Assembly: GCA_951406725.2 (NCBI GenBank) | Contig: OX597841.1 | Location: 17,546,001 to 17,610,000, forward strand | Length of the DNA: 64,000 nt | Source: Octopus vulgaris | Lineage: Eukaryota | Direction: 5' to 3' | In this document: piece after piece, positions 7,003 to 58,385 of the stretch | How the letters are laid out: the number at the start of each line of letters is the position of its first letter | How positions within the stretch are numbered: position 1 is the stretch's first letter | The notes under the pieces: generated by a model | What the model saw: the letters and a program-made list of their open reading frames with translations, nothing else | Databases searched by the model: none | Told to the model about the DNA's origin: nothing | Made by a program: the position numbers and the translations under genes

Positions 7003-8177
7003 GGATACTGCTAGCGAACAGTGCTCCCGGTGAGCGCAAACTCGCACTCGCGCATCCGCGCTAGCTAGTCGTAAGTAGTCGATCCTACAGCAACTTTTTA
7101 ACCCTAACCCTAAACCTAATTTTTTTAACCCTAGCCCTAAACCTAATTTTTTAACCCTAACCCTAAACCTAATATTTTAACCCTAAACCTAAACCTAATT
7201 TTTTAACCCTAACCCTAAACCTAATTTTTTAACCCTAAACCTAAACCTAATTTTTTAACCCTAACCCTAAACCTAATATTTTAACCCTAAACCTAAACCT
7301 AATTTTTTAACCCTAACCCTAAACCTAATATTTTAACCCTAAACCTAAACCTAATTTTTTAACCCTAACCCTAAAACTAATATTTTAACCCTAAACCTAA
7401 ACCTAATTTTTTAACCCTAACCCTAAACCTAATATTTTAACCCTAAACCTAAACCTAATTTTTTAACCCTAACCCTAAACCTAATATTTTAACCCTAAAC
7501 CTAAACCTAATTTTTTAACCCTAACCCTAAACCTAATATTTTAACCCTAAACCTAAACCTAATTTTTTAACCCTAACCCTAAACCTAATATTTTAACCCT
7601 AAACCTAAACCTAATTTTTTAACCCTAACCCTAAACCTAATATTTTAACCCTAAACCTAAACCTAATTTTTTAACCCTAACCCTAAACCTAATATTTTAA
7701 CCCTAAACCTAAACCTAATTTTTTAACCCTAACCCTAAACCTAATATTTTAACCCTAAACCTAAACCTAATTTTTTAACCCTAACCCTAAACCTAATATT
7801 TTAACCCTAAACCTAAACCTAATTTTTTAACCCTAACCCTAAACCTAATATTTTAACCCTAAACCTAAACCTAATTTTTTAACCCTAACCCTAAACCTAA
7901 TTTTTTAACCCTAAACCTAAACCTAATTTTTAAACCCTAAACCTAAACCCTAAACCTAATTTTTTAACCCTAACCCTAAACCTAATTTTTTAACCCTAAC
8001 CCTAACCCTAAACCTAATTTTTAAACCCTAAACCTAATTTTTTAACTCTAACCTTAGTTTGCTTATAAAAATAATTTATTTACTTAGTTTAAAAAACTAT
8101 TTAGGATCGACTAATTACGACTAGGTAGCACGGAAGCGCGAGTGCGCGCACCGGGACCACTGTTCGCTAGTAGTACC
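7003..8177. mobile_element. Non-autonomous TIR transposon (Merlin-like) with an internal telomere-like 26-bp minisatellite
   Basis: Imperfect TIRs of ~80 bp, GGTACTACTAGCGAACAGTGG...; near-TSD GAGGGGTTT / GAGGGTTT; GGTAC fits the Merlin GGNRM terminus. Array at 7095-8055. Confidence 0.7.
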
Positions 8178-21096: not shown

Positions 21097-21551
21097 GCCC
21101 GGTGCGCGCACTCGCACATATGCGTTAGCTAGTCGTAAGTAGTCGATCCTACAACGACTTTTTAACTCTAACCCTAAAACTAATTTTTTAACCCTAACCC
21201 TAATCCTAATTTGTTTATAAAAATAATTTATTTACTTAGTTTAAAAAAATTATTTACTTTGAGTTTTTTTTGCTTTTCTTTTTCTTTTCTATTTTTTTCT
21301 TTTTACTTATTTCAGTCATTTGACTGCAACCATGCTGGAGCACCGCCTTTAGTCGAGCAAATCGATCCCGGGACTTATTCTTTTTGTAAGCCCAGTACTT
21401 ATTCTGTCGGTCTCTTTTACTCGTTTCAGTCATTTTCAGTCATTTTATCGGTGTCTTTTGCCGAACCGCTAAGTTACGGGGACATAAACCAACCAGCATC
21501 GGTTGTCAAGCGATGCTAGAGGGACAAACACAGACACACAAATATACACGC

Positions 21552-26855: not shown

Positions 26856-27031
26856 TACAATAGACTCGACTTGGCCACACACACACACACACACACGCAA
26901 TCAAGCATACAAACATTCATTAATACTTTCACACATATAAATCTACTCACATGCACACACGTTAAATCTTCTATAAATATTGATATCGTGTTCGCTTTCA
27001 GTTGAATTTTTTCTCTTAGAGAACGGTGAGT
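26856..27031 (+). promoter_or_regulatory. Gene A core promoter and non-coding exon 1 (about 27000-27025)
   Basis: TATAAAT at 26972, Inr TCAGTT with A at 27000 (28 nt downstream), donor ACG|GTGAGT (GT at 27026). The block is homologous to 37814-37992. Confidence 0.7.
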
Positions 27032-27300
27032 GACGATCCGATAATCTGTATAACTGCCTATGTTTAATTCAAAACTTTATTGCTTTTATTCCTATATATA
27101 TATATATATAATAATTAAGAATAGCCAAAACTCTTTGACTGCTATTTCTAAATTCGGTGTGTGGTGATGCAAATCGTTGCTAAAGCCTTAATTACTTAGT
27201 ATTACTTAAACCTTCCTTGAATGGGGCTTTTACATGCCGAAATCTAATTGGTGAAATTAATGATTATTCCAAATTAATTAATTTCACCCTTTATTATTAT

Positions 27301-27353
<53 letters not shown>

Positions 27354-27369
27354 TTTTTTCCCCACACTA

Positions 27370-28110
27370 GTAGGTTTTGGACATCTGCTGTACGCTCGCT
27401 CCACCATTTGTTGGCAGACGACACGCTACTCCTGACAGGCGGCATCTTGCCGCCACTCAGGAGATAATCTTCCAACCCATGCGAATGTTTTGTGTAGCCG
27501 TTCTTGATGAGAGGTTTCTGCGAAAGCGGAATGCAAATCCTACATCAACCTTTAATCGCATTTTATGACGCTCAGAGGAAACGTTGCGTCTATTCTCTGA
27601 CATGTCGGTCCCCTACACAGCATATTACTAGTCTTCGCAGACGACACTTTGTTGCTGGCAGACGACACCTTGTCACCACTCAGGCGACAGCACACTGACC
27701 CATGGATATGTTTGGGTAGTCGTTGCTAGTGAATTTTTACGATGTTGGGCCCCACTCCAACCATTTTTAGTCGCCATTTACGGTACGCCAAGGAATCGTT
27801 GGGCGTTTTCTTTGACATGTCGATAATAATGGTAAACCTAACATTATTAATAAAGAAGGATGAAAATGGCGTTGTAACAGCGCATCACTGCATTCGCCAT
27901 TTGTGGGCGATTCCATACTACTCGGAGCAGATGTCATCTTGTCGCCACTCGGACGGCAACCTTCCAATCCATGGGTCTTTTGGGGTCGTCCTCGTTGCTG
28001 CTAAGGGTTTTTATGAGGTCGGAGTGCAATTTCTACCTCCTACTTTTAGTCACCTTTTCACGACTCGCAGAGCAAACGTTGGGACCTCTCTTCAGCACGC
28101 TGGTCCCTTA
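27370..28110 (-). repeat. Diverged ~240-bp repeats (also at 20285-20870), possibly Tc1 transposase relics
   Basis: Shared motifs CCACCATTTGTTGGCAGACGACA, TTGTCACCACTCAGGCGAC and TGACATGTCG recur 4-5 times. Confidence 0.5.
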
Positions 28111-29084
28111 TAGCACAGTTTGTTAATTCACAAAAAAAAAAAAAGAAAGAAAAAAATGCATGCCCCTCATTAATTTAATTTCGAGTATTTACGATAGAAT
28201 ATTTTTAATATCCGAATTCCTTCTATTTTCGTTTCTCTTAGTGAATTTTCTCAAGTCTTTCTTCGATAACTGAACAAATACGTATACTGAACAGAATCTG
28301 CAGAAGAGCCAGTACCGAATAGTTTTTTAATATAATACAAGGTAAGCTCTATGTATTACGGTTTTCTCTTCGTATTTTACTTGTCCTACTACGGCCATGC
28401 TGAGGTACCGTTTCGAAGAATTTAGGAATTTCAAGTCTGGCTCTCGTACCCAAGGGCTACTTTGCTGACCTACTAAATAACGGTCATATAAACACGCTAA
28501 AGCGGTGGTGGGACATACACACACATGCACACGTCAGGCTTCTTTTAGTTTCTGTCTACCAAATCCGCTCAAGTTTCTAGTCTGCCAGAGGTAATAGAAC
28601 ACACTCATGACGCCTCTGGGAATTGAAACCAGATCCATGTGATTGGGAAGCAAAATTCTTTCAGCGGCTCCTTGCCAATTTCCGCTATCGAACGAACCTT
28701 GTTAAATTCAACCCTATTCAGAAAGACAACGTTGTTAATTACTTTAAAAATTACGTTGTTTTCCAGGGATGGACGAGGTATGCAAATTAGCTCACAGCTT
28801 CTGGTTAAGCAACGTTGTAGAGTTGTTTCGTCTCTGACCAAATTCTTGTAAATACACCACGTTTTCTGTTTCGTTGCTCCTCGTTAAGGTTCTGTTATTT
28901 CAGCATGTATCTAGCTGCTCCCTTTAGTTCGCGACTTGAATATTTACGGAGTCTCACTGTTCGCTAGTAGTACCTATGAATTTTTTATAATATAGTATTT
29001 ACAAATTATATATTAAATATCAAATGATTCATAGTATATATATATATAAATTAGTAAAATATAAAATATGTATACATAGGGCTA

Positions 29085-29565
29085 CGGCGAGCTGGCAGAA
29101 TCGTTAGCACGTCTGCCGTAACGTTCTGAGTTCAAATTCCGCCGAGGTCGACTTAGCCTTTCATCCTTTCGGGGTCGATAAATTAAGCACCAGTTACGCA
29201 CTGGGGTCGATGTAATCGACTTAATACCTATGTTTGTCCCCTCTATGTTTAGCCCCTTGTGGGTAATAAAGAAATAGGTGTTTCATCTGTCTTTATGTTC
29301 TGAGTTCAAATTCCGCTGAGGTCGACTTTGCCTTTCATCCGTTCGGGGTCGATAAATTAAGTACCAGTTACGCACTGGGGTCGATGTAATCGACTTAATA
29401 CCTATGTCTGTCCTTGTTTGTTCCCTCTGTGTTTAGCTCCTTGTGGGTAATAAAGAAATAGGTATTTCGGCTGCCGTAACGTTGTGAGTTCAAATTGTAA
29501 TCGACTTAATACCTATGTTTGTCCCCTCTATGTTTAGCCCCTTGTGGGTAATAAAGAAATAGGTA
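29085..29565 (+). mobile_element. SINE A multimer with internal deletions
   Basis: Homology to SINE A. Confidence 0.85.
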
Positions 29566-29698
29566 TTACGTGGCTCTGAGGGGGCTGTGGTCCAGTAAGT
29601 TTCAGGACCTTCGTGTAAAATCTCCGTTAAACCGGCAATCAGTTGGTATTTTCTTTTTTATTTCAGGTGACTGAATCCTGTTTATATTTGCATTTTTA

Positions 29699-29986
29699 AT
29701 GAATTTAAATCCGAACAATCATACGAAAATGTCTGAAGAAGCTATTATTAAGGGTTTCGCCGATGTCGTCAACTTTGTGTCCCGACTTATATTCGATGCA
29801 TGTCCTAGCTTAAAAATCCTGGAACCCGTGATTAAAGGTGTAATACCAGTGGTGGCAAAAGCAGTGATTGACTTAGATAAGGATCACCAAAGGGACGAAG
29901 GCGGTTATTATCGCTACCATGAATTGTCCTTCGATGGCCATTCGTCTACAGGAAGCAGACATGTGAAATCAAGATCGCGATGGTGA
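29699..29986 (+). CDS. Gene A: 95-aa apparent orphan protein in a single coding exon (acceptor AG at 29665-29666)
   Basis: Non-repetitive ORF just after TTTTCTTTTTTATTTCAG|. Amphipathic-looking N-half. ATTAAA at 30142. Homologous to gene B exon 2. Confidence 0.6.
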   Translation: MNLNPNNHTKMSEEAIIKGFADVVNFVSRLIFDACPSLKILEPVIKGVIPVVAKAVIDLDKDHQRDEGGYYRYHELSFDGHSSTGSRHVKSRSRW

Positions 29987-30672
29987 AGCTTCAACGGCCG
30001 GATATCGAAGGACTCGACATCGACTCGGCCGTGTATGCTCTGTTGTTGCAGAAACGTTCCAGTGTAGTTCTGAAGTGGGTTCGACTCCAAACAGGAACGT
30101 GGAAAAGTCTAAATACTTTCTTCGATAATATCTTGAAACATATTAAAATTGTTTTCGCTGTTCCACAAAAGTAATACAAAGTTTCACGTACATTTCGTGT
30201 AAGCCGAGAGACAGACTACACGTCCGTTTGAAATTTCCATTTGCTCTGGCTTTTGTGTTTAAACATTTGATATACATACATCTGTATAGTATAAACACAA
30301 ATGTATATATTTCCCTGTATAAATGTATATGTAAAAGTATGTACACAAATGTATATATATTTCGCTGTATATGTAAATGTTGCTAACCCCTGCATTCGAA
30401 GGAAAAGCTAATTTAATATCTATGGAACATCTACAGAAAAACCTGTGCTAATACCGTCATCAGTTTGTAAAATATATGTTAAAACCTTTGTTTTTCGTCT
30501 TTCGCCTCCGATACAATTTAAGAAAATTTTGTAAAATGCTTGAGTTGTTCTGAACTTTTCGTTTTTTTTCTTTTCGTGGCTAGATTTGAATACTTATTTT
30601 CGAATTCTAATTAAATTAGACTTTTTAAAATTTCAATACTTTCTGAAATTTACTCAGTGTCTGTCTGTCTGT

Positions 30673-37813: not shown

Positions 37814-37992
37814 TACAATAAACTCGACCTAGCCACACACACACACACACAATCAACAACACACACGTTAATTAACACACATACACACACATATAGATAC
37901 ACCCACGTACATACACACTCACAAACCTATAAATATCGGTGTTTCGCCGTGGAATTCTTTTCGCTTGTATCTTGTCTGAGAAACGGGTAAGT
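37814..37992 (+). promoter_or_regulatory. Gene B core promoter and non-coding exon 1 (about 37955-37986)
   Basis: TACAATAAACTCGACCTAGCC(AC)nAATCAA...CTATAAATAT (TATA at 37928)...GAGAAACGG|GTAAGT (GT at 37987). Colinear with 26856-27031. Confidence 0.7.
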
Positions 37993-38025
37993 CACAATCT
38001 GACTGCTTTTAAACGCTCCACTTAA

Positions 38026-38613
38026 CCCCTTACCCGGCAGAAACGAATATATGCGTTTTGACCGAAATCGTTTTTTTTTTTCTATCTCTGGCGAGTTAAC
38101 TCGTCAAAAGATAGACTCGCCAAAATCGACAGCAAACTAGTTCCTTTGTCTATTATAAACTCTTTTTTGACATATACGAGTATATTCGCTCACTTTATAC
38201 GTCTGGCAGTGACGATTTCTGCCACCTTTCGCTTGAGTAGGGCATTGAAGACCGAGTATGATTTAATCACCTGGAGACAGTCGAAGGGTTGGAAGGCACA
38301 TTTTAGGAATAGAAGTTTTCACTTTGTTCTTACGTTGTTTTTTTTTATACCTTTATATTATAACCCCACCATGTCGATAACCAAATAAAATAACATGATT
38401 TTTTGTAAAAGTAATATGATTTTAGAAAAAAACGGGTTAACTCGTTTCTGCCCAAAATGGTAATTTAAAATCAATATTATTGAATTAAAATTCATAATAA
38501 AAAAGGTTTGAAATATACCCCGAAATCACCATTCAAAACATAGTAAAATAAAACAATTAAAAAATAGGTCTGAAAAAATACATTTATTTTCAAAATAATT
38601 GTTGGGTAAGGGG
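38026..38613. mobile_element. piggyBac-like MITE, 588 bp, in gene B intron 1
   Basis: TTAA|CCCCTTACCC ... GGGTAAGGGG|TTAA. Confidence 0.85.
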
Positions 38614-39460
38614 TTAAAGTAGGTCAAACTATGACAAAAAAATTTAGTAAATTTATAAAATCAAAACTACCTTATTTCCATCTGTACACCCTTGCAATTC
38701 ATTACGGGTACTAAAAAATGTCCTCAGCCTTATTCTAGAAACTACTGCATTGGGTTTTTAGCTGTGGCAGCAAGATCAGTCTTTCGTGGAGGTGAACTTG
38801 CAGTGACGGGAGTATTGTAATACGAATGGCAAATAGCGTATCTTGTTAGGGCAGACAACAAGAGGTAATTTAAATATTGGTCCTACTTTCAAGATTTAGT
38901 TCTTTTAAACCCACTAAAATTAAAGGATTTTATTATAAATTCAACGAAAAATACTTTTATAAACCTAGTTTTCCCTAAGCACACGTTCGTATGTATATAT
39001 ATATATATATATATTGGCCTTCGACCACCGCCGTGAGAACATCTCTTGTCTTCGTCTGCCGATAAAGGCATTTTCCCAAAATACGCCAGCTAAACTTGTT
39101 GTACTGTTATTAGTCGTAAGACACCCGCTGTTTTCGTCCTGTTTTTACCATTATTGTTTCTTGTATTTCATTTTTGTTTTTTGTATTTCATTATTGTTTT
39201 TTGTATTTTATATTCGTGTGGCATCGTCCGTTTTTCTGTCCCTATTTCGTATACATTCGATCCTTCTTCCAAGAAATCTAATGCTCGTAGCTTAGTTTTC
39301 CCGGGGGCTGGCCGGATCGGAGTGATCTCAAGATTAATCAGCCGAAATTGCTACGATGATCCGGTTATTGACTGAAGATTGAAGGCTTCGAATGTCCCGT
39401 CCGTTTTTTTTTGTATCGTCTTCTAAATGTTTTGCGTTCTTGTCCCAGTTTGTATTTTTC

Positions 39461-40658: not shown

Positions 40659-41378
40659 CTAGCAGTATCGCCCGGCGTTGCTCGGGTTTGTAAGGGAAAT
40701 AACTATATAAGCATTTTTAGAGAGTTATAGCCAAAAAATAGCAAAAAAATGCATTAAAAATGGAAAAAAAATGATACTCTTTACTCTTTTACTTGTTTCA
40801 GTCATTTGATTGCGGCCATGCTGGAGCACCGCCTTTAGTCGAGCAAATCGACCCCGGGACTTATTCTTTGTAAGCCCAGTACTTATTCTATCGGTCTCTT
40901 TTGCCGAACCGCTAAAATTTTTAAAAAAATCGTTGACTCATCGTAGACATTTTTAGAGAGTTACTTCCCTTATATAATAGCAAAAAAATGCATTAAAATG
41001 GAAAAAAATGATGGTAAATTTTTTTTTAAATCGTAGACTCATCGTAGACGCGCGCTAATACCCAGAAGGGCTCGATATGAATCACGACTATAAGATACCC
41101 GGTTTTGGTTACACTGCACCGCAAAATGTGGGAGTAGTTAGGAATCTAAATCGTAGGAGACAGACATACAACTTCACTTTTATATATAAAGATTTGCCAA
41201 AATATTTTCGTCGCTTTGGGACCGCGACCTGTTCACCGACAAAATTCCATAATGCAAATAAAATTTAAATGAAGTGAATCTAACAGTTTTTGTGTTTCTT
41301 AAATGGCTTATAAATATAATAATGAAATTATTGTATACAGTGCCCAGGTACACACAACTTGACTTTTATACATAAAGA
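40659..41378 (-). mobile_element. Compound Helitron with two 5' ends, captured DNA (41193-41361) and a nested SINE B fragment (40775-40915)
   Basis: CTAG at 40659; 5' TC ends at 41192 and 41378. The intervening segment matches 31858-32024. Confidence 0.85.
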
Positions 41379-41588
41379 TATATATTTATTTATTTCAGAT
41401 AACTGGAAAAGCCCCGCTCTTTTTACCTCAATATACTCAGCTTAATTTGGATAACCGTAAGAAAATCGACCAATCGTACAATTTAAGAGATTGTTGAAAG
41501 ACCGTCAAAGTTTTATACCCGCGTGCTACCGAAGTGAATCCTTATTTAAGATTCTTTAAACCAGTTGTGACGACCGTGATACCATACC

Positions 41589-42905
41589 ATGGAAATATTA
41601 TTGTCTTTTTTTGGATTCGGAAACTCAGAGACCAGCTTTTATGAGGAGAGCAAAGTTGAATATGAATACAGTTCTTGCGAAGAAAACTGGTGGTCCACAA
41701 GTGGAAGTTCGCGATCCAGCAGCCCAGAGCCCGAGAGTTCGAGATCCGGCAGTGTGTGGTCCAATATTCCGTGCGCCGGCAGATCCGACAGCTTGCTTTC
41801 CAATAGTTTGTGCTCCAGCAGATCTGATAGCAGTTTGTGGTCCGACGGTTCGTTGACTGATGGTTCGTCGACTGATGGTTCGTCGACTGATGGTTCGTCG
41901 ACTGATGGTTCGTCGACCGATGGTTCGTTGACTGATGGTTCGTCGACGGACGGTTCGTTGACAGACGGTTCGTTGACAGACGGTTCGTTGACAGACGGTT
42001 CGTTGACCGACGGTTCGTTGACAGACGGTTCGTTGACAGACGGTTCGTTGACAGACGGTTCGTTGACAGATGGTTCGTTGACAGACAGTTCATTGACAGA
42101 CGGTTCACATTTCGATCGTTCGCGGTCCAGCAGCTCGACCTGTGACCTTTTGAGCTCCAGCTGTTCACAGTCTAATAGTTTACAATCCAATAGTCCATTG
42201 TTCCGCTGTTCACAGTCCAGCAAGCAAAGTTTCAGCCAACCAAAGCCCTACAAGCAACTTACCAGCCCTCAACGGTCTGGCTGCCAGCAGCCCAGCCAGG
42301 AAAGGTCTGGCTGTCCGCAGCCCAGCCAGGAAAGGTCTGGCTGCCCGCAGCCCAGCAAAGAAAGGTCTGGCTGCCCACAGCCCAGCCAGGAAAGGTCTGG
42401 CTGCCAGCAGCCCAGCAAAGAAAGGTCTGGCTGCCCGCAGCCCAGCAAGCAATGGTCTGGCTGCCAGCAGCCCAGCCAGGAAAGGTCTGGCTGCCCGCAG
42501 CCCAGCCAGGAAAGGTCTGGCTGCCAGCAGCCCAGCAAGGAAAGGTTTGACTGCCCGCAGCCCAGCAAGCAAAGGTCTGGCTGCCCGCAGCCCAGCAAGG
42601 AAAGGTCTGTCTGCCCGCAGCCCAGCAAGCAAAGGTCTGGCTGCCCACAGCCCAGCAAAGAAAGGTCTGGATGCCCGCAGCCCAGCAAAGAAAGGTCTGG
42701 CTGCCCGCAGCCCAGCAAGCAAAGGTCTGGCAGCCCGCAGCCCAGCAAAGAAAGGTCTGGTTGCCCACAGCCCAGCAAGCAAAGGTTTGGGTGCCCTAAG
42801 TCTAGCAGGCAAAAGTCTAACTGCACGCAGTCCAGCAAGCAAAGGTCCGGCAGTCCACAGTCATGTTGCCCGCGTTCCAGAAAGCGAAGATACGGCTGTT
42901 CATAA
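41589..42905 (+). CDS. Gene B: 438-aa Ser/Cys/Pro/Gln-rich repeat protein, (DGS[L/S]T)x~18 and (RSGCPQPS[K/Q][E/Q])x~20
   Basis: First ATG after acceptor TTTATTTCAG| (41398), Kozak ACCATGG. Unique N-terminal, linker and C-terminal segments are all open in one frame. Repeat units are 15 and 30 bp with synonymous variation. Confidence 0.85.
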   Translation: MEILLSFFGFGNSETSFYEESKVEYEYSSCEENWWSTSGSSRSSSPEPESSRSGSVWSNIPCAGRSDSLLSNSLCSSRSDSSLWSDGSLTDGSSTDGSSTDGSSTDGSSTDGSLTDGSSTDGSLTDGSLTDGSLTDGSLTDGSLTDGSLTDGSLTDGSLTDGSLTDSSLTDGSHFDRSRSSSSTCDLLSSSCSQSNSLQSNSPLFRCSQSSKQSFSQPKPYKQLTSPQRSGCQQPSQERSGCPQPSQERSGCPQPSKERSGCPQPSQERSGCQQPSKERSGCPQPSKQWSGCQQPSQERSGCPQPSQERSGCQQPSKERFDCPQPSKQRSGCPQPSKERSVCPQPSKQRSGCPQPSKERSGCPQPSKERSGCPQPSKQRSGSPQPSKERSGCPQPSKQRFGCPKSSRQKSNCTQSSKQRSGSPQSCCPRSRKRRYGCS

Positions 42906-43373
42906 CTCATTCTGGAAATTCGATGAGCGTAAATCACCACTCGGACATCATGTTAAAATATATTTATTGCAATTGTTTTGGCTGCCTCAGGTAACGTCTG
43001 CATTGAAAAACAGCACAAAGAAGGGCATTCATGCATATCTACCGTATATACCGGCACAGTAACCTTTAAACCTAAACAAACAAAAAAAAAAATGTCATGC
43101 ATTCTAATGCGACCATATTATAGATGAGATACTGAGTGACTGAGAAGAAATATTCAATTTGTTCATTTTTTCCACAAAATATGAAGTAGGGGTGCATCTT
43201 AAGTGTGAATGCATCTTATACGTTGATGAACACGGTATGAAATTTACTTTTTTTCTTTTTTATTAAATTTTTTCGTATTTTCTTTTCTTTAGGATCTTTG
43301 CTTCTTGTGCGTGTGGGTGTATGAAGGATGTGAGTTGATGTGTGTGTGTATGTATGTGTGTATATTTCAGTGG

Positions 43374-47215: not shown

Positions 47216-50200
47216 TTCTTTACTACCCACAAGGGGCTAAACACAGAGAGGACAAACAAGGACAGACAAAGGGATTAAGTCGACTACATCGACCCCAGTG
47301 CGTAACTGGTACTTAATTTATCGACCCCGAAAGGATGAAAGGCAAAGTCGACCTCGGCGGAATTTGAACTCGGAACGTAACAGCGACAGACGAAATACGG
47401 CTACGAATTTCGCCCGGCGTGCTAACGTTTCTACCAGCTCGCCGCCTTATATATATATATATATGCATTAACACAAGTTTATATGGATGTGTGTGTATGT
47501 ATATATATATATATATGCATTAGCACAAGTTTGTATGGATGTGTGTGTATGTATATATATATATATATGCATTAACACAAGTTTATATAGATGTGTGTGT
47601 ATGTGTATATATATATATATATATATTTCTTTACTACCCACAAGGGGCTAAACACAGAGGGGACAAACAAGGACAGACAAAGGGATTAAGTCGACTACAT
47701 CGACCCCAGTGCGTAACTGGTACTTAATTTATCGACCCCGAAAGGATGAAAGGCAAAGTCGACCTCGGCGGAATTTGAACTCGGAACGTAACGACAGACG
47801 AAATACGGCTACGAATTTCGCCCGGCGTGCTAACGTTTCTACCAGCTCGCCGCCTTATATATATATATATATGCATTAACACAAGTTTATATGGATGTGT
47901 GTGTATGTATGTATATATATATATATATATGCATTAACACAAGTTTATATGGATGTGTGTGTATGTATATATATATATATATATATGCATTAACACAAGT
48001 TTATATGGATGTGTGTGTATGTATATATATATATATATATATGCATTAACACAAGTTTATATGGATGTGTGTGTATGTATATATATATATATATGCATTA
48101 ACACAAGTTTATATAGATGTGTGTGTATGTGTATATATATATATATATATATTTCTTTACTACCCACAAGGGGCTAAACACAGAGGGGACAAAGAAGGAC
48201 AGACAAAGGGATTAAGTCGACTACATCGACCCCAGTGCGTAACTGGTACTTAATTTATCGACCCCGAAAGGATGAAAGGCAAAGTCGACCTCGGCGGAAT
48301 TTGAACTCGGAACGTAACGACAGACGAAATACGGCTACGAATTTCGCCCGGCGTGCTAACGTTTCTACCAGCTCGCCGCCTTATATATATATATATATGC
48401 ATTAACACAAGTTTATATGGATGTGTGTGTATGTATGTATATATATATATATGCATTAACACAAGTTTATATGGATGTGTGTGTATGTATATATATATAT
48501 ATATGCATTAACACAAGTTTATATGGATGTGTGTGTATGTATATATATATATATATGCATTAACACAAGTTTATATGGATGTGTGTGTATGTATATATAT
48601 ATATATATATATGCATTAACACAAGTTTATATGGATGTGTGTGTATGTATATATATATATATATATATGCATTAACACAAGTTTATATGGATGTGTGTGT
48701 ATGTATGTATATATATATATATATATGCATTAACACAAGTTTATATGGATGTGTGTGTATGTATATATATATATATATATGCATTAGCACAAGTTTGTAT
48801 GGATGTGTGTGTATGTATATATATATATATATATATATGCATTAACACAAGTTTATATGGATGTGTGTGTATGTATATATATATATATATGCATTAACAC
48901 AAGTTTATATGGATGTGTGTGTATGTATATATATATATATATGCATTAACACAAGTTTGTATGGATGTGTGTGTATGTATATATATATATATATGCATTA
49001 ACACAAGTTTGTATGGATGTGTGTGTATGTATATATATATATATATGCATTAACACAAGTTTGTATGGATGTGTGTGTATGTATATATATATATATATGC
49101 ATTAACACAAGTTTGTATGGATGTGTGTGTATGTATATATATATATATATGCATTAACACAAGTTTATATGGATGTGTGTGTATGTATATATATATATAT
49201 ATGCATTAGCACAAGTTTGTATGGATGTGTGTGTATGTATATATATATATATATATGCATTAGCACAAGTTTGTATGGATGTGTGTGTATGTATATATAT
49301 ATATATGCATTAACACAAGTTTATATGGATGTGTGTGTATGTATATATATATATATATGCATTAACACAAGTTTGTATGGATGTGTGTGTATGTATATAT
49401 ATATATATATGCATTAACACAAGTTTGTATGGATGTGTGTGTATGTATATATATATATATATGCATTAACACAAGTTTATATGGATGTGTGTGTATGTAT
49501 ATATATATATATATGCATTAACACAAGTTTATATGGATGTGTGTGTATGTATATATATATATATATGCATTAACACAAGTTTATATGGATGTGTGTGTAT
49601 GTATATATATATATATATGCATTAACACAAGTTTGTATGGATGTGTGTGTATGTATATATATATATATATGCATTAACACAAGTTTATATGGATGTGTGT
49701 GTATGTATATATATATATATATGCATTAACACAAGTTTGTATGGATGTGTGTGTATGTATATATATATATATATGCATTAACACAAGTTTATATGGATGT
49801 GTGTGTATGTATATATATATATATATGCATTAACACAAGTTTGTATGGATGTGTGTGTATGTATATATATATATATATGCATTAACACAAGTTTATATGG
49901 ATGTGTGTGTATGTATATATATATATATATGCATTAACACAAGTTTGTATGGATGTGTGTGTATGTATATATATATATATATGCATTAACACAAGTTTAT
50001 ATGGATGTGTGTGTATGTATATATATATATATATGCATTAACACAAGTTTATATGGATGTGTGTGTATGTATATATATATATATATGCATTAACACAAGT
50101 TTGTATGGATGTGTGTGTATGTATATATATATATATATGCATTAACACAAGTTTATATGGATGTGTGTGTATGTATATATATATATATATGCATTAACAC

Positions 50201-50495
50201 AAGTTTATATGGATGTGTGTGTATGTATATATATATATATATGCATTAACACAAGTTTGTATGGATGTGTGTGTATGTATATATATATATATATGCATTA
50301 GCACAAGTTTGTATGGATGTGTGTGTATGTATATATATATATATATGCATTAGCACAAGTTTGTATGGATGTGTGTATGTATATATATATATATATGCAT
50401 TAGCACAAGTTTGTATGGATCTGTGTGTATGTATGTATGTATATATATATATATATATATATGCATTAACACAAGTTTATATGGATGTGTGTGTA
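47150..50495. repeat. ~50-bp minisatellite ATGCATTAACACAAGTTTATATGGATGTGTGTGTATG(TA)n with three embedded SINE A copies; resumes at 53018-53100
   Basis: Dozens of near-identical units. SINE A (minus) at about 47214, 47624 and 48150. Confidence 0.95.
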
Positions 50496-52667
50496 TTGAG
50501 TGCCACAGACCAAGTTTGTGGATGGTGCAAAGTCCCTTCCAGACCTAGAATTACGTGGTGGTGGAATAGTGCAGTAGATAAAGCCATCTGTGAAAAGAGA
50601 CGGGCCTGGAAAGCCTGGAAGGATGGGGGCAGCAGGGAACTGTACCAGATAGCCAAAAGGGAGGCTGGGCGGCAGGTATACATTGCCAAAGATGTAGCAG
50701 AAAAGAAGAAGTTTGCCAATGTCCAGCGTCGCGAGGATCAAAGAGCTGAAGTATTTCGGATTGCCAGACAGTGTGTCAGAGAAAATAGCGATGTTATAGG
50801 AGAGAAATGTGTCCGCATGGATGATGGGGCACTTGCTTTTACTACTAGTGAAAAGAAAGAGGCTTGGAGAAGCCATTATGAAAGACTGCTAAATGAGGAG
50901 AATGAATGGGAGGAGGAGAGCCTGCCAAATGTTGACCCAGTAGAGGGACCAGCTACCCGAATAGACAGCTCCCTTGTAGATAAGGCAATTAAGGATATGA
51001 AACCAGGCAAAGCCCCTGGCCTATCAGGAATCACTGCTGAGATGCTTAAAACAGCTGGCTATGTGGGCCATGCCATAGTCACCCGCATTGTAAACCAGGT
51101 AGTTCACAATGGAGCCATACCCAATGACTGGTGCAGCAGTACCATAGTCAACTGCTACAAGGGTAAGGGTGATGCTCTAGATAGAAATAACTACAGAGGT
51201 ATCAAACTGTTGGACCAGGTGATGAAGGTCTCAGAGAAGGTCATAACCAATCTCATTAGGGAGAGAATTTGTTTAGATGAAATGCAGTTCGGTTTTGTAC
51301 CAGGTAGAAGCACCACTGATGCTATATTCCTGGTCCGACAACTGCAGGAGAAGTACCTAGCTAAAGATAAACCCCTCTACATAGCTTTTGTAGACTTGGA
51401 GAAAGCCTTTGACAGGGTTCCCCGTTCCCTTATCTGGTGGTCGATGCGGAAACTGGAGATTGAAGAATGGCTAATAAGGGCTGTACAGGCTCTATACAGA
51501 GAGGCTGTTAGCAAGGTTAGGATTGGCAACGAATATAGTGAAGAATTCCGAGTAGAAGTAGGTGTGCACCAGGGCTCAGCCCTCAGTCCCCTTTTGTTCA
51601 TCATAGTCCTTCAAGCAATAACAGAGGAATTCAAAACGGGATGCCCCTGGGAGCTCCTCTATGCCGATGACCTAGCTCTCATAGCAGAATCACTACCGGA
51701 ACTAGAAGAGAAATTTCGGGTATGGAAGCAAGGGTTGGAATCAAAGGGCCTTAGAATAAATGTAGCAAAGACCAAAGTATTAGTAAGCAGCAAGAGGTAC
51801 TCAACACACATCCCCTCGGGTAGGTGGCCCTGCTCAACCTGTAGGAAAAGTACAGGTAGAAACTCCATAAGATGCACCCAATGTAAGTTATGGACACATA
51901 AGAGGTGCAGCAACATTAAAGGGAAATTAACAGATAAGATAGCTTTCATGTGCGGCAGATGCACAGGGACAATAGACACAACAGACACTCAGAAAACAGA
52001 TTCCATCACACTCCAGGGAGAGAAACTAGAAGTAGTTGATAGTTTCCGCTACCTGGGAGACCAAGTTAGTAGCGGAGGTGGATGCACAGAGAGTATCACC
52101 ACTAGAACACGAATAGCCTGGGCAAAGTTCAGAAAGCTCCTACCCCTACTGGCAACAAAAGGCCTCTCCCTCAGAGCAAAAGGTAGATTATATGATGCAT
52201 GTGTGCGAACTGCCATGCTTCACGGTAATGAAACATGGGCTGTGACTGCAGAAGACATGCGTAGACTTGAAAGAAATGAAGCTAGCATGATCCGCTGGAT
52301 GTGTAGTGTCAGTGTGCACGCAAAACAGAGCGTAAGTATCCTGAGAGAAATGCTGGATATAAGAAGCATCAGATGTGGTGTGCAAGAGCGACGCTTGCGA
52401 TGGTATGGTCATGTGCTGCGGATGGATGAAGAGAGATGTGTGAAGAAGTGCCACTCCCAAACAGTTGAAGGTATCAGGGGGAGAGGTAGACCCAGGAAGA
52501 CATGGGATGAGGTGGTCAAGCATGACCTCAGAGCATTGGGCCTCACTGAGGCAATGGCGAAGGACCGAGATCTCTGGAGATATGCTGTGACTACAAAGAC
52601 CCGGGCTGCTTTCTGCAGCAATTCCACATACCCCCTACCCATTCTAAGTACCCCCTACCCATTCTAA
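50496..52667 (+). CDS. RTE reverse transcriptase (partial, no endonuclease) with an embedded PHD-type zinc finger
   Basis: NYRGIKLL, QFGF, FVDLEKAFD, GVHQGSALSPLLF, YADD (51660), FRYLG. C4HC3 finger at 51831-51962. The ORF-track start at 50265 is minisatellite read-in. Confidence 0.9.
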   Translation: MSATDQVCGWCKVPSRPRITWWWNSAVDKAICEKRRAWKAWKDGGSRELYQIAKREAGRQVYIAKDVAEKKKFANVQRREDQRAEVFRIARQCVRENSDVIGEKCVRMDDGALAFTTSEKKEAWRSHYERLLNEENEWEEESLPNVDPVEGPATRIDSSLVDKAIKDMKPGKAPGLSGITAEMLKTAGYVGHAIVTRIVNQVVHNGAIPNDWCSSTIVNCYKGKGDALDRNNYRGIKLLDQVMKVSEKVITNLIRERICLDEMQFGFVPGRSTTDAIFLVRQLQEKYLAKDKPLYIAFVDLEKAFDRVPRSLIWWSMRKLEIEEWLIRAVQALYREAVSKVRIGNEYSEEFRVEVGVHQGSALSPLLFIIVLQAITEEFKTGCPWELLYADDLALIAESLPELEEKFRVWKQGLESKGLRINVAKTKVLVSSKRYSTHIPSGRWPCSTCRKSTGRNSIRCTQCKLWTHKRCSNIKGKLTDKIAFMCGRCTGTIDTTDTQKTDSITLQGEKLEVVDSFRYLGDQVSSGGGCTESITTRTRIAWAKFRKLLPLLATKGLSLRAKGRLYDACVRTAMLHGNETWAVTAEDMRRLERNEASMIRWMCSVSVHAKQSVSILREMLDIRSIRCGVQERRLRWYGHVLRMDEERCVKKCHSQTVEGIRGRGRPRKTWDEVVKHDLRALGLTEAMAKDRDLWRYAVTTKTRAAFCSNSTYPLPILSTPYPF

Positions 52668-55544: not shown

Positions 55545-56380
55545 TTCTAGGAAGCTGAGGCAATTACCAATTGATTGCAGATAAATGAAAAATGTTATGT
55601 TTTTGAGCAGAGGCAGTTATGAACCCATGGGTAAATTAAATTGTGGTTTCTAGGAATCTGAGGCAATTATCAACTGATTGTGGGTAAATGAGAAAAGCAG
55701 TAGAGGCTGTTATGAACCTGTGGGTAAATTAAATTGTGGTTTCTAGGAATCTGAGGCAATTATCAACTGATTGTGGGTAAATGAGAAAAGCAGTAGAGGC
55801 TGTTATGAACCTGTGGGTAAATTAAATTGTGGTTTCTAGGAATCTGAGGCAATTATCAACTGATTGTGGGTAAATGAGAAAAGCAGTAGAGGCTGTTATG
55901 AACCTGTGGGTAAATTAAATTGTGGTTTCTAGGAATCTGAGGCAATTATCAACTGATTGTGGGTAAATGAGAAAAGCAGTAGAGACTGTTATGAACCCGT
56001 GGGTAAATTAAATTGTGGTTTCTAGGAATCTGAGGCAATTATCAACTGATTGTGGGTAAATGAGAAAAGCAGTAGAGGCTGTTATGAACCTGTGGGTAAA
56101 TTAAATTGTGGTTTCTAGGAATCTGAGGCAATTATCAACTGATTGTGGGTAAATGAGAAAAGCAGTAGAGGCTGTTATGAACCTGTGGGTAAATTAAATT
56201 GTGGTTTCTAGGAATCTGAGGCAATTATCAACTGATTGTGGGTAAATTGAGAAAAGCAGTAGAGGCTGTTATGAACCTGTGGGTAAATTAAATTGTGGTT
56301 TCTAGGAATCTGAGGCAATTATCAACTGACTGTGGGTAAATGAGAAAAGCAGTAGAGGCTGTTATGAACCTGTGGGTAAA
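55545..56380. repeat. 93-bp tandem repeat, 8 near-identical copies plus 1 diverged
   Basis: TAGGAATCTGAGG recurs at 55651, 55744, 55837 and onward. Confidence 0.95.
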
Positions 56381-58385
56381 ATAGTGATAGATTTTTAACC
56401 ATTTGAGGCAACTGACAATTGATTGTGGATAAATGATAAAAATGTAATGGATAATTAGACACTAATTAATTAGACACTAATTAACCGTGTGGGCAAAATA
56501 AATAGTTTTTAATCAGCTGTGGCAATTACTGATTGTGGGTATATTGGCCACAGAGGTAACCGACAGGAGTAATTAAGAAAGAAGTTGATAAATAATTTAG
56601 GTTAAACCAGATGATGTAGTTACCAACAGAGGGTGGGTAACTGAAAAATATGATGGTAATCACTTGAGGCAGTGGGTCGATTTACCTGTAACAGTGGTTT
56701 CTAGCAAGCTGAGGTAATTACCAACTGATTGGGAGTAAAATGAGAAAGTGATGGTAAGCAGCAGAGGCAGTTATGAATGTATGGGTAAAAATAGTGTTTT
56801 CTTTTTACCACCTGGTAAAAATAAAAATAAAAACTCTGATGGTAACCAGCAGAAACAATTATGAACCTGTGGGTAAATATACAAAAAACCTTGATGGTAA
56901 CAGGCAGAGATAGTTATAAATCTGAAGGTAAAAGAAAGTGGGGTTTTTTTTTACCAGCTGAAGTAATTACCAAGAGATTGTAGGTAAATAAAGAATTGAT
57001 GGTAACCAGCAGAAACAGCTATGAACCTGTGGGTAAAATAAAGTTGTTTTTTTACCAGCTGAAGTAATTACCAAGAGATTGTAGGTAAATAAAAAAGAAT
57101 TGATGGTAACCAGCAGAAACAGCTATGAACCTGTAGGTAAAATTCAGTCGGGTTTCTTTTTTTACCAGCTGGAGTAATTATCAAGCGATTGTGGACAAAT
57201 TAAAAAAAAACAACTTTTATGGTACTTAGCAGAAACAGTTATGAATTTGTGGGAAAAATAAAGTTGTTTTATTTTAACACCTGAAGCAATTACCAAGAGA
57301 TTCTGGGTAAATAAAAAAAAATTGATGGTAACTGGCAGAAACAGTTATGGGTAAAATAAAGTGGGTTTATTTACCAGCTGAAGCAATTACCAAGACATTG
57401 TGGGTAAATAAAAAAGAAACTTTGATGATAACCAGCAGAAACAGTTATTAACCAGTGAGTAAAATAAATTGGGTTTATTACCAGCTGAAGCAAATACCAA
57501 GAGACTGAGGTGAAACGTTAAAAATTTTTTGATGGTAACCAGAGGAAACAGCTATGAACCTGTGGTTAAAACGCTTTCTTTCCCTTTTACCAGTGAAGGT
57601 AGTTACAAAGAGGTTGTGGGGAAAGAAAAAAGCTTCGATGGTAATCAGTAGAGACAGTTATGAACCTGTGGTTAAAATAAAGTGGCTTTCATTTACCAGG
57701 TGAGGTAATTACCAATGAATTGTGGGGAACAAAAAAAATTAATGGTAACCAGCAGAAACAGTTACAAACATGTGGGTAGAATAAAGTGTTTTTTTCTTTT
57801 ACCAACTGGAGCAATTACCAAGGGGTTCTGGGTAAATAATAAAAATTTATGGTAACCAGCAGAAATAGTTATGAGTAAAATTGTCTTGTTTTTTTTTTTA
57901 ACCAGCTGAAATAATTAGCAAGAGAATGTAGGTAAAAAAAGAAAGAGTTTGGTGGTAACCAGCAAAAAGTTATAAATCAGTGGGTTTCATTTATCAGCTG
58001 TGGTAATTACCAAGAGATTCTGGTAAAAAAAATTGGTGGTAACCAGCAGAAAGTTATAAAAAGTGGATAAAATAAAATAGCTTTTATTTACCAGTTGAGG
58101 TAATTATAAAAAGAGATTCTGGGTTAAAAATAAAAAAAAATTGATGGTAACCAGTAGAAAGTTATGAACTTGTGGTTAAATCTAACAAGGATTTTAAAAA
58201 CCAACAGAAGAAATTACTACCTGTGGGTAAATTAAAGATGATAGTATCCCATAGAGATAGTGTATCTCCTAACTGGGGGTAGATCTTTTTAAACAGAGCT
58301 GGTAACTCTGAAGGTGATGGTATAGTTACCATGGTATAGTTACCAAGCCAACTTTGGGTAAGTTATATGAATGGTAAAACCATTA
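56380..58385. repeat. Diverged ~110-bp dimeric satellite related to the 93-bp repeat
   Basis: Alternating subunits CCAGCTGAAGCAATTACCAAGAGATTGTGGGTAAA and CCAGCAGAAACAGTTATGAACCTGTGGGTAAA. Confidence 0.85.

What the first reader, a model, noticed from the sequence alone, without database searches (positions are those of the whole stretch)
41589..42905. Diblock acidic/basic Ser-Cys repeat protein, a candidate new structural biomaterial
Seen: an acidic block of ~18 DGS(L/S)T pentapeptides (41844-42110), a basic block of ~20 RSGCPQPS(K/Q)(E/Q) decapeptides (42270-42863) with Cys at 10-residue periodicity, and a basic tail CCPRSRKRRYGCS. No clear signal peptide. Known: Cys/Pro/Gln/Lys repeats typify disulfide- and transglutaminase-crosslinked proteins (SPRR/cornifin, keratin-associated, sperm-tail proteins), and Asp/Ser repeats are phosphorylated cation binders. 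Inference: a disordered polyampholyte able to self-coacervate and then crosslink. I do not recognise it as a known family.
Basis: partly seen in the sequence, partly recalled or inferred. Interest (0 to 1): 0.7.

Follow-up and report, generated by a model that had tools for sequence, protein, structure and literature searches.

The report
Orphan octopus acidic-basic cysteine repeat gene
A gene in what is probably an octopus genome encodes a 438-residue protein with an acidic repeat block followed by a weakly basic block carrying a cysteine every ten residues and no detected relatives; it is likely spliced and translated, and would most likely serve as a disulfide-cross-linked building material in developing sperm, though its tissue is untested.

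Summary
The ORF is as described (41589-42905, 438 aa): 17 D(G/S)S(L/S)T units (net -17), 20 decapeptides (net +21 over 200 aa, 18 Cys in register), basic tail, no signal peptide, no confident fold. It is probably a real gene. Contigs of two runs leave the genome at an AG acceptor (41400) while a third reads through. The 5' UTR differs more than the coding part in 2 of 3 runs, and repeat variation leans synonymous. No family or homologue was found (Pfam, 1.84 billion representatives, Atlas leads only). New here: three broken dispersed fragments exist, and the predicted promoter is duplicated in a neighbour gene 11 kb upstream that has four intron-less retrocopies, so the neighbour is transcribed in the germ line. 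Best reading (0.4): an intracellular spermatid structural protein that works like SMCP or the Cys/Pro part of ODF1 without belonging to those families. Tissue, translation, phosphorylation and coacervation are untested. The acidic block's 15-bp unit resembles a transposon terminal repeat (suggestive only). The scan's notes held nothing on this sequence.

The parts
37816..37838 (+). Upstream promoter-like motif shared with neighbour gene B
   Evidence: Pattern found 3 times in 2.8 Gb, control 0; 33-nt alignment score above 1000 of 1000 shuffles
37928..37935 (+). TATA box (predicted)
   Evidence: Sequence; TATA-to-donor layout matches at 2 places in 464 kb, here and gene B
37952..37986 (+). Predicted non-coding exon 1 (start uncertain), donor GTAAGT at 37987
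   Evidence: Sequence only; not tested against RNA
38762..38864 (+). Predicted non-coding exon 2 (103 nt), with a 7-codon uORF
   Evidence: Splice consensus; 35+103 nt fits the 135(+3) unplaced contig letters; not tested against RNA
41400..41588 (+). Coding exon, 5' UTR part; no ATG; strong start context at 41589
   Evidence: Contigs of X1 and X4 align from 41397, record position 136; X8 runs through from 41356
41589..41843 (+). Unique acidic Ser-rich N-terminal region (aa 1-85, net -7)
   Evidence: Single copy in G000; no homologue
41844..42098 (+). Acidic block, 17 x D(G/S)S(L/S)T, 16 CK2-consensus sites; 15-bp unit resembles a transposon terminal repeat
42099..42272 (+). Ser/Gln-rich linker (aa 171-228)
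   Evidence: 144-nt dispersed copy on contig C23
42273..42872 (+). 20 decapeptides RSGC(P/Q)QPS(K/Q)(E/Q), Cys at 10-residue spacing
42873..42905 (+). Basic tail RSRKRRYGCS and stop
   Evidence: tail and stop also present in the broken C16 copy
42906..43030 (+). Probable 3' UTR (end not determined)
   Evidence: 87% identical to the C16 copy up to about 43030
26858..30449 (+). Neighbour gene B: same promoter layout (TATA 26972, donor 27026), exon 28242-28341, exon from 29667, ORF 29699/29729-29986 (95/85 aa)
   Evidence: four intron-less copies elsewhere

Best explanation
The ORF is the single coding exon of a likely spliced, lineage-restricted gene whose product is predicted to be a disordered intracellular protein that would most likely be made in spermatids and cured by disulfide bonds into a sperm accessory structure such as the outer dense fibres or fibrous sheath. 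Shown: the block anatomy, single intact copy, no homologues, a duplicated promoter layout shared with a neighbour that has retrocopies. Strongly inferred: splicing at 41400 and coding constraint. Inferred, untested: germ-line expression of this gene; the acidic block (more so if phosphorylated at its 16 CK2-type sites) pairs with the basic block or holds Zn/Ca and keeps the protein soluble or condensed; the Cys residues at i+10 later oxidise between chains into an insoluble network, with Gln/Lys as possible transglutaminase sites.
For: Transcript: 610-nt contigs in 2 of 4 runs laid (X1, X4; two studies) align from 41397 and carry 135 further letters unlike the genome, at a TTTCAG acceptor; X8 reads through; the flanking repeat ends at 41379, not at the break. 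Constraint: UTR vs CDS differences 8/189 vs 1/255 (X4, p 0.006) and 7/189 vs 2/255 (X1, p 0.04); synonymous variants among repeat units 5 of 7 (p 0.017) and 9 of 23 (p 0.038), no stops. Germ line: neighbour B shares the promoter motif and TATA-donor layout, and 4 of 4 dispersed B copies lack its 1325-nt intron; retrocopy parents are germ-line expressed in mouse (PMC8826619, passages). This gene has 3 dispersed exonic fragments, one 5'-truncated with the 3' UTR. Analogy: Octopus sperm have outer dense fibres and a fibrous sheath (PMC11753710, passages); mammalian ODF/FS proteins are Pro/Cys-rich, disulfide-stabilised and bind zinc (PMC8471410, passage); the P/C/Q-rich single-coding-exon genes SMCP and LELP1 are testis-biased (PMC10791643, passages).
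Against: No tissue information: X1 is only guessed to be RNA and X4 has no recorded kind. The 135 unplaced letters were not seen, so exons 1-2 are predictions. X8 shows no UTR/CDS contrast (5/189 vs 3/87, p 0.71); X1 and X4 share most differences, so they are not independent; C30Y is non-synonymous. The pentapeptide synonymous excess is equally present in the mirror antisense frame (p 0.012), and p-values are uncorrected for six frames. No B retrocopy carries exon 1 (0 of 4, best 10 of 200 shuffles), and two begin at the first base of exon 2, so the shared promoter is not shown to drive the retrocopied transcript. None of this gene's own fragments spans an intron, so their RNA origin is unproven. 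Retrocopy parents in mouse are mostly housekeeping genes, and germ line includes oocytes. Cys is only 6% overall (10% in the block), with 1 CXP and 0 CGP motifs. The octopus assignment is recalled from the repeat content and from earlier AI notes, not tested here.
Confidence: 0.4

Rival explanations
1. Somatic intracellular cornification-like protein (SPRR/PRR9/KAP-like) that hardens an epithelium such as sucker rim, beak-forming or radula cells by disulfide and transglutaminase links; closest to the first reader's idea.
For: P+C+Q make up 44% of the decapeptide block, with Gln and Lys available; Atlas leads KAP10-like and PRR9; one coding exon behind non-coding exon(s), as in SEDC genes.
Against: Atlas scores under 0.9 are chance-level; no Pfam family at all; dispersed copies and the neighbour's retrocopies point to germ-line transcription at this locus.
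Confidence: 0.2
2. Spermatid nuclear protein (transition-protein or protamine-precursor-like): the acidic half masks the basic Cys-rich half until cleavage or dephosphorylation, and the basic half then helps condense and cross-link chromatin.
For: Basic tail RSRKRR, 23 RS dipeptides, acidic N-half and basic C-half; a Cys-rich protamine of Eledone is cited in PMC11607694 (passages and reference title); same germ-line hints as above.
Against: Arg 6.8%, Lys+Arg 16.8% of the C-half, far below protamines (recalled: Arg often above 40%); 47 kDa; Glu offsets much of the charge in the repeats.
Confidence: 0.15
3. A transcribed locus whose ORF is a by-product of in-frame minisatellite growth (young, near neutral, or a lncRNA).
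For: Units of 15 and 30 bp without stops give long ORFs in several frames here (183, 213 and 302 codons in other frames); no homologue anywhere; the acidic unit resembles a transposon repeat; X8 shows no constraint.
Against: The first ATG of the exon is in strong context and opens the one frame that runs through unique N-term, both arrays, linker and tail; 0% indels in both arrays; lower divergence in CDS than UTR in X1 and X4; the dispersed C16 copy has a frameshift and two stops while this one has none.
Confidence: 0.15
4. Oocyte or early-embryo cytoplasmic protein that stores Zn/Ca or scaffolds a condensate, Cys binding metal rather than forming disulfides.
For: Retrocopies do not tell male from female germ line; the cytosol is reducing; the Asp/Ser block could bind cations (inference).
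Against: No His/Cys clusters typical of metal stores (His 0.2%, Cys isolated at i+10); no positive evidence for ovary.
Confidence: 0.1

Closest known systems
SMCP / LELP1 / PRR9 / SPRR (P-C-Q-rich single-coding-exon EDC proteins of mammals)
   Same: One coding exon behind non-coding exon(s), low-complexity P/C/Q repeats, no signal peptide, predicted disorder; SMCP and LELP1 are testis-biased (PMC10791643).
   Different: No sequence match; 0 PKxPEP motifs; Ser-dominated (26%); carries a separate 85-aa acidic block; not in a vertebrate EDC.
ODF1/HSPB10 and other outer-dense-fibre proteins
   Same: Pro/Cys-rich, candidate disulfide-stabilised sperm-tail material (PMC8471410); octopus sperm have the structures (PMC11753710).
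   Different: No alpha-crystallin domain; 1 CXP motif against ODF1's CXP run (ODF1 motif recalled).
Keratin-associated proteins (KAP10-like)
   Same: Top Atlas lead at 0.80-0.82; periodic Cys with Ser/Pro/Gln.
   Different: Cys 6% overall, 0 CCxP motifs, no Pfam match; score is within the range of shuffled proteins.
Protamines, their precursors and transition proteins (including the Eledone Cys-rich protamine)
   Same: Basic Cys-containing C-terminal tail behind an acidic region.
   Different: Arg content and charge density far too low; much longer.
Drosophila Mst(3)CGP sperm-tail proteins (recalled)
   Same: Lineage-restricted Cys/Gly/Pro repeat proteins of spermatids.
   Different: 0 CGP motifs; no homology.

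Membership tests
SPRR/cornifin | Cornifin-type PKxPEP tandem repeats / Pfam cornifin model (motif recalled) | tested here: not met
   0 Pfam families at E<=1; 0 PKxPEP
SEDC genes (SPRR, SMCP, PRR9) | Single coding exon after a non-coding exon | tested here: met
   Whole ORF lies in one exon; upstream splice inferred; feature from PMC10791643. A generic layout, not proof of kinship
SEDC genes (SPRR, SMCP, PRR9) | Location in the S100A-flanked epidermal differentiation complex of amniotes | tested here: inconclusive
   No related repeat gene among ORFs of 150 aa or more in 464 kb; S100 genes were not searched for
Keratin-associated proteins | High Cys content with CCxP-type pentapeptide repeats (recalled) | tested here: not met
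   Cys 6.2%, 0 CCxP; no Pfam hit
ODF1/HSPB10 | Alpha-crystallin domain plus CXP repeat tail (tail motif recalled) | tested here: not met
   No Pfam hit; 1 CXP
Protamines / SNBP | Small, very Arg-rich (threshold recalled) | tested here: not met
   Arg 6.8%, 438 aa
Pentapeptide-repeat (Rfr beta-helix) proteins | Pfam pentapeptide match or predicted beta-helix | tested here: not met
   No Pfam hit; pLDDT 30-33 over aa 81-170 in a single-sequence model, which is weak evidence
Disulfide-cured sperm accessory-structure proteins (functional class) | Spermatid expression and localisation to ODF/fibrous sheath | not testable with these tools
   Run tissues are not given
Disulfide-cured sperm accessory-structure proteins (functional class) | SDS-insoluble until reduced | not testable with these tools
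   Bench test
Secreted coacervate biomaterials | Signal peptide | tested here: not met
   Best 19-aa hydropathy 0.32; frame closed upstream; no dedicated predictor was run

The most novel reading that the evidence does not exclude
This is a component of cephalopod sperm outer dense fibres or fibrous sheath invented independently of mammals: a charge-balanced diblock that condenses on itself under phospho-control and is then cured through a 10-residue cysteine ladder, its acidic block exapted from the amplified terminal repeat of a DNA transposon.
Probability: 0.12. Interest if true: 0.68.

Novelty: new variant of a known kind. Interest (0 to 1): 0.38.

Why it matters
Octopus sperm have outer dense fibres and a fibrous sheath like mammals, and my paper searches turned up no listing that names their proteins. 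A lineage-specific Cys/Pro repeat protein would be a testable case of convergent sperm-tail reinforcement and a simple diblock template for cure-on-oxidation materials. If it is somatic or near neutral, it is one more orphan repeat gene, which animals have in numbers; hence a moderate score.

Tried and rejected
Run search: no RNA holder listed; 8 of 24 rows hold part of the stretch, and 16 same-label rows show 0.00, which I do not use as evidence on tissue. Contig depths (3 in X1, 206.7 in X4) are not used as expression levels. X3, X5, X6 and X7 were never laid (4 of the 8 holders were). The predicted upstream exons and the 3' half were not checked against reads. Homologue searches: whole protein, 240-767 aa (0 of 2705 candidates); aa 1-90, 30-239 aa (0 of 121); longer forms were not searched with that tool; exact look-up negative. 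Representative search gave 2269 hits at E<=0.001; of the 150 listed, 0 match the unique N-term, linker or tail and 0 carry arrays of this protein's motifs; the other 2119 were not seen. AlphaFold gave no fold, so no fold search was run. Exon-3 UTR and protein of genes A and B do not align above shuffles (172 and 496 of 1000), so only the promoter is shown to be shared. The C26, C10:19.2 Mb, C5 and C7 protein hits were set aside; only C26 was inspected and it is a SINE-derived 30-bp array. Gene B: no Pfam family, no homologue at 46-149 aa. Polymorphic insertion as the cause of the contig break: rejected because the flanking element ends at 41379 and X8 reads through. Paper search for four peptide motifs: 0 papers; supplements are not covered by that search and annotated gene tables there could hold this gene. 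No complex prediction was sent.

Full report
Observation. The ORF 41589-42905 (+) gives 438 aa. Two indel-free arrays lie in it: period 15 (17.5 copies) and period 30 (19.3 copies). The protein has five parts: a unique N-terminal 85 aa (net -7), 17 pentapeptides (11 DGSLT, 5 DGSST, 1 DSSLT; net -17), a 58-aa linker, 20 decapeptides (net +21; last three degenerate) and a 10-aa tail (+5). Cys sits at every tenth residue from 232 to 412 except 382. The halves carry -24 and +29. There is no hydrophobic stretch for a signal peptide, and a stop closes the frame just upstream. A single-sequence AlphaFold model has mean pLDDT 37.5, consistent with disorder but weak evidence on its own.

Organism. G000 has 2.8 Gb in 227 contigs. 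I recognise the interspersed repeats as octopus-type from memory, and earlier AI notes on this genome say the same. I did not test this.

Is it a gene? Four of the eight runs holding the stretch were laid on 41000-41843. In X1 and X4 (two studies, two organism labels) a 610-nt contig aligns from 41397 onward starting at record position 136, so 135 letters lie elsewhere. The break falls at the acceptor TTTCAG ending at 41399. A contig of X8 reads through from 41356, and X2's contig does not reach the place. The dispersed element upstream ends at 41379, so the break is not its border. X1 is only guessed to be RNA, X4 has no recorded kind, and the 135 letters were not displayed. From sequence alone a TATA box (37928), a short exon ending at a GTAAGT donor (37987) and a 103-nt exon (38762-38864) add up to about the missing length; these were not tested against reads. 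The exon's 189-nt leader has no ATG and the start has A at -3 and G at +4.

Constraint. Listed differences per site are higher in the UTR than in the unique coding part for X4 (8/189 vs 1/255, p 0.006) and X1 (7/189 vs 2/255, p 0.04) but not X8 (5/189 vs 3/87, p 0.71). One of ten differences in each of X1 and X4 was not listed, and the two share most sites. Among repeat units, distinct variants are synonymous in 5 of 7 (expected fraction 0.27, p 0.017) and 9 of 23 cases (0.21, p 0.038), with no stops. The mirror antisense frame scores as well for the pentapeptides (p 0.012); for the decapeptides the other five frames give p of 0.3 or more. This is modest support for translation in the annotated frame.

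Relatives. None found: Pfam 0 families; 0 of 2705 and 0 of 121 candidates; not in the cluster collection. Of the best 150 of 2269 representative hits, all have their best stretch mainly in a repeat block, and none matches the unique segments or carries this protein's motif arrays. Atlas leads are KAP10-like and PRR9 at 0.76-0.82, a level shuffled proteins often reach. Four peptide motifs occur in 0 papers.

Copies in the genome. The 5' part is single copy. Three fragments lie elsewhere. C16 holds about 700 bp of decapeptides, tail and 3' UTR, 5'-truncated, with a 2-bp deletion and two premature stops. C10 holds about 110 bp of the tail with a stop. C23 holds 144 bp of array end and linker at 93%. 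All are exonic, but none spans an intron, so RNA origin is unproven.

The neighbour. A second gene (B) 11 kb upstream has the same layout: motif, (CA)n, TATA, short exon, 100-nt exon, coding exon. The motif occurs three times in the genome, the third being a 98% segmental copy of B's 5' part 5 Mb away. B encodes an 85-95-aa orphan. It has four dispersed copies, all lacking its 1325-nt intron; three join the exons exactly and one with a small deletion. B is therefore transcribed in the germ line. In mouse, retrocopy number follows germ-line expression, though most parents are housekeeping genes (PMC8826619, passages). Against over-reading: no copy carries B's exon 1, two start at the first base of exon 2, and A and B share no detectable UTR or protein similarity. 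The transfer to gene A is an inference.

Mechanism. An intracellular, disordered, P/C/Q-rich repeat protein at a germ-line-active locus fits the class of disulfide-cured sperm structural proteins. Octopus vulgaris sperm have nine outer dense fibres and a fibrous sheath (PMC11753710, passages). In mammals these structures are SDS-resistant, disulfide-stabilised, Pro/Cys-rich and zinc-binding (PMC8471410, passage), and the P/C/Q-rich single-coding-exon genes SMCP and LELP1 are testis-biased (PMC10791643, passages). A review of the fibrous sheath had no passage on cephalopods (PMC11276731, term search). I infer that the acidic block, with 16 CK2-consensus sites, balances the basic block during assembly and that regularly spaced Cys then cross-link chains. 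I put this at 0.4, against somatic cornification-like 0.2, nuclear transition-like 0.15 (PMC11607694, passages, cites a Cys-rich Eledone protamine; Arg here is only 6.8%), near-neutral ORF 0.15 and oocyte store 0.1.

Origin of the acidic block. Its DNA hits an array on C18 (72% over 214 nt). That array belongs to a dispersed element with 15-bp terminal repeats (14 exact dimer matches at 10 places, control 0; inverted units). Of 7 loci examined, 5 have both ends; flanking 9-mers match at 8, 8, 6, 4 and 3 of 9, and the unit is amplified to long arrays in 2. Consensus units agree at 11 of 15 (1061 of 200000 shuffles), best unit pairs at 11-13 of 15, but the gene's flanks do not match the element. 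With many repeat families in the genome this is suggestive only (about one in three, my estimate).

Verdict. It fails the membership tests for SPRR, KAP, ODF1 and protamines but plausibly works like the Cys/Pro-rich sperm or cornified structural proteins. The biomaterial claim is untested. Papers seen only as search listings were not used beyond their titles and abstract starts; no supplements were read, and gene tables there could bear on novelty and tissue.

Noticed in passing
window 26858-30449 (+): Unreported orphan gene B (85-95 aa, hydrophobic N-half) with four intron-less retrocopies (L098-L101) and a promoter duplicated with the gene of this finding.
   Followed up: yes
G000:C28:22718588-22720555 (L091, L093): 98% segmental copy of gene B's promoter, exon 1 and exon 2 without the coding exon in the 50 kb fetched.
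   Followed up: partly
L028:1220-1730; L035-L040: Non-autonomous DNA-transposon-like family with 15-bp terminal repeats that amplify into tandem arrays; 9-bp flanking duplications in some copies (Mutator/foldback-like, label recalled).
   Followed up: partly
window 50250-52667 (+): 805-codon open frame with a reverse transcriptase (RVT_1, E 7e-30) and a PHD-like finger; LINE-type element.
   Followed up: partly
window 7095-8053 and 21148-21217: 26-bp satellite built from telomere-like AACCCT units, 36.6 copies.
   Followed up: no
window 48382-50448, 55609-56380, 56868-57874: Minisatellites of 52 bp x 39, 93 bp x 8.3 and 106 bp x 9.5.
   Followed up: no
window about 38020-38620: By eye, short inverted ends with TTAA flanks in the predicted first intron, like a piggyBac-type MITE (label recalled).
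   Followed up: no
window 63234 onward (+), running past the window end: 294-codon ORF with an ordinary-looking acidic start and a Pro-rich CACCAC-repeat end.
   Followed up: no
P0005 (aa 400-520): Unrelated library protein with a QFTDG pentapeptide array, similar to another reading frame of the transposon's 15-bp repeat.
   Followed up: no
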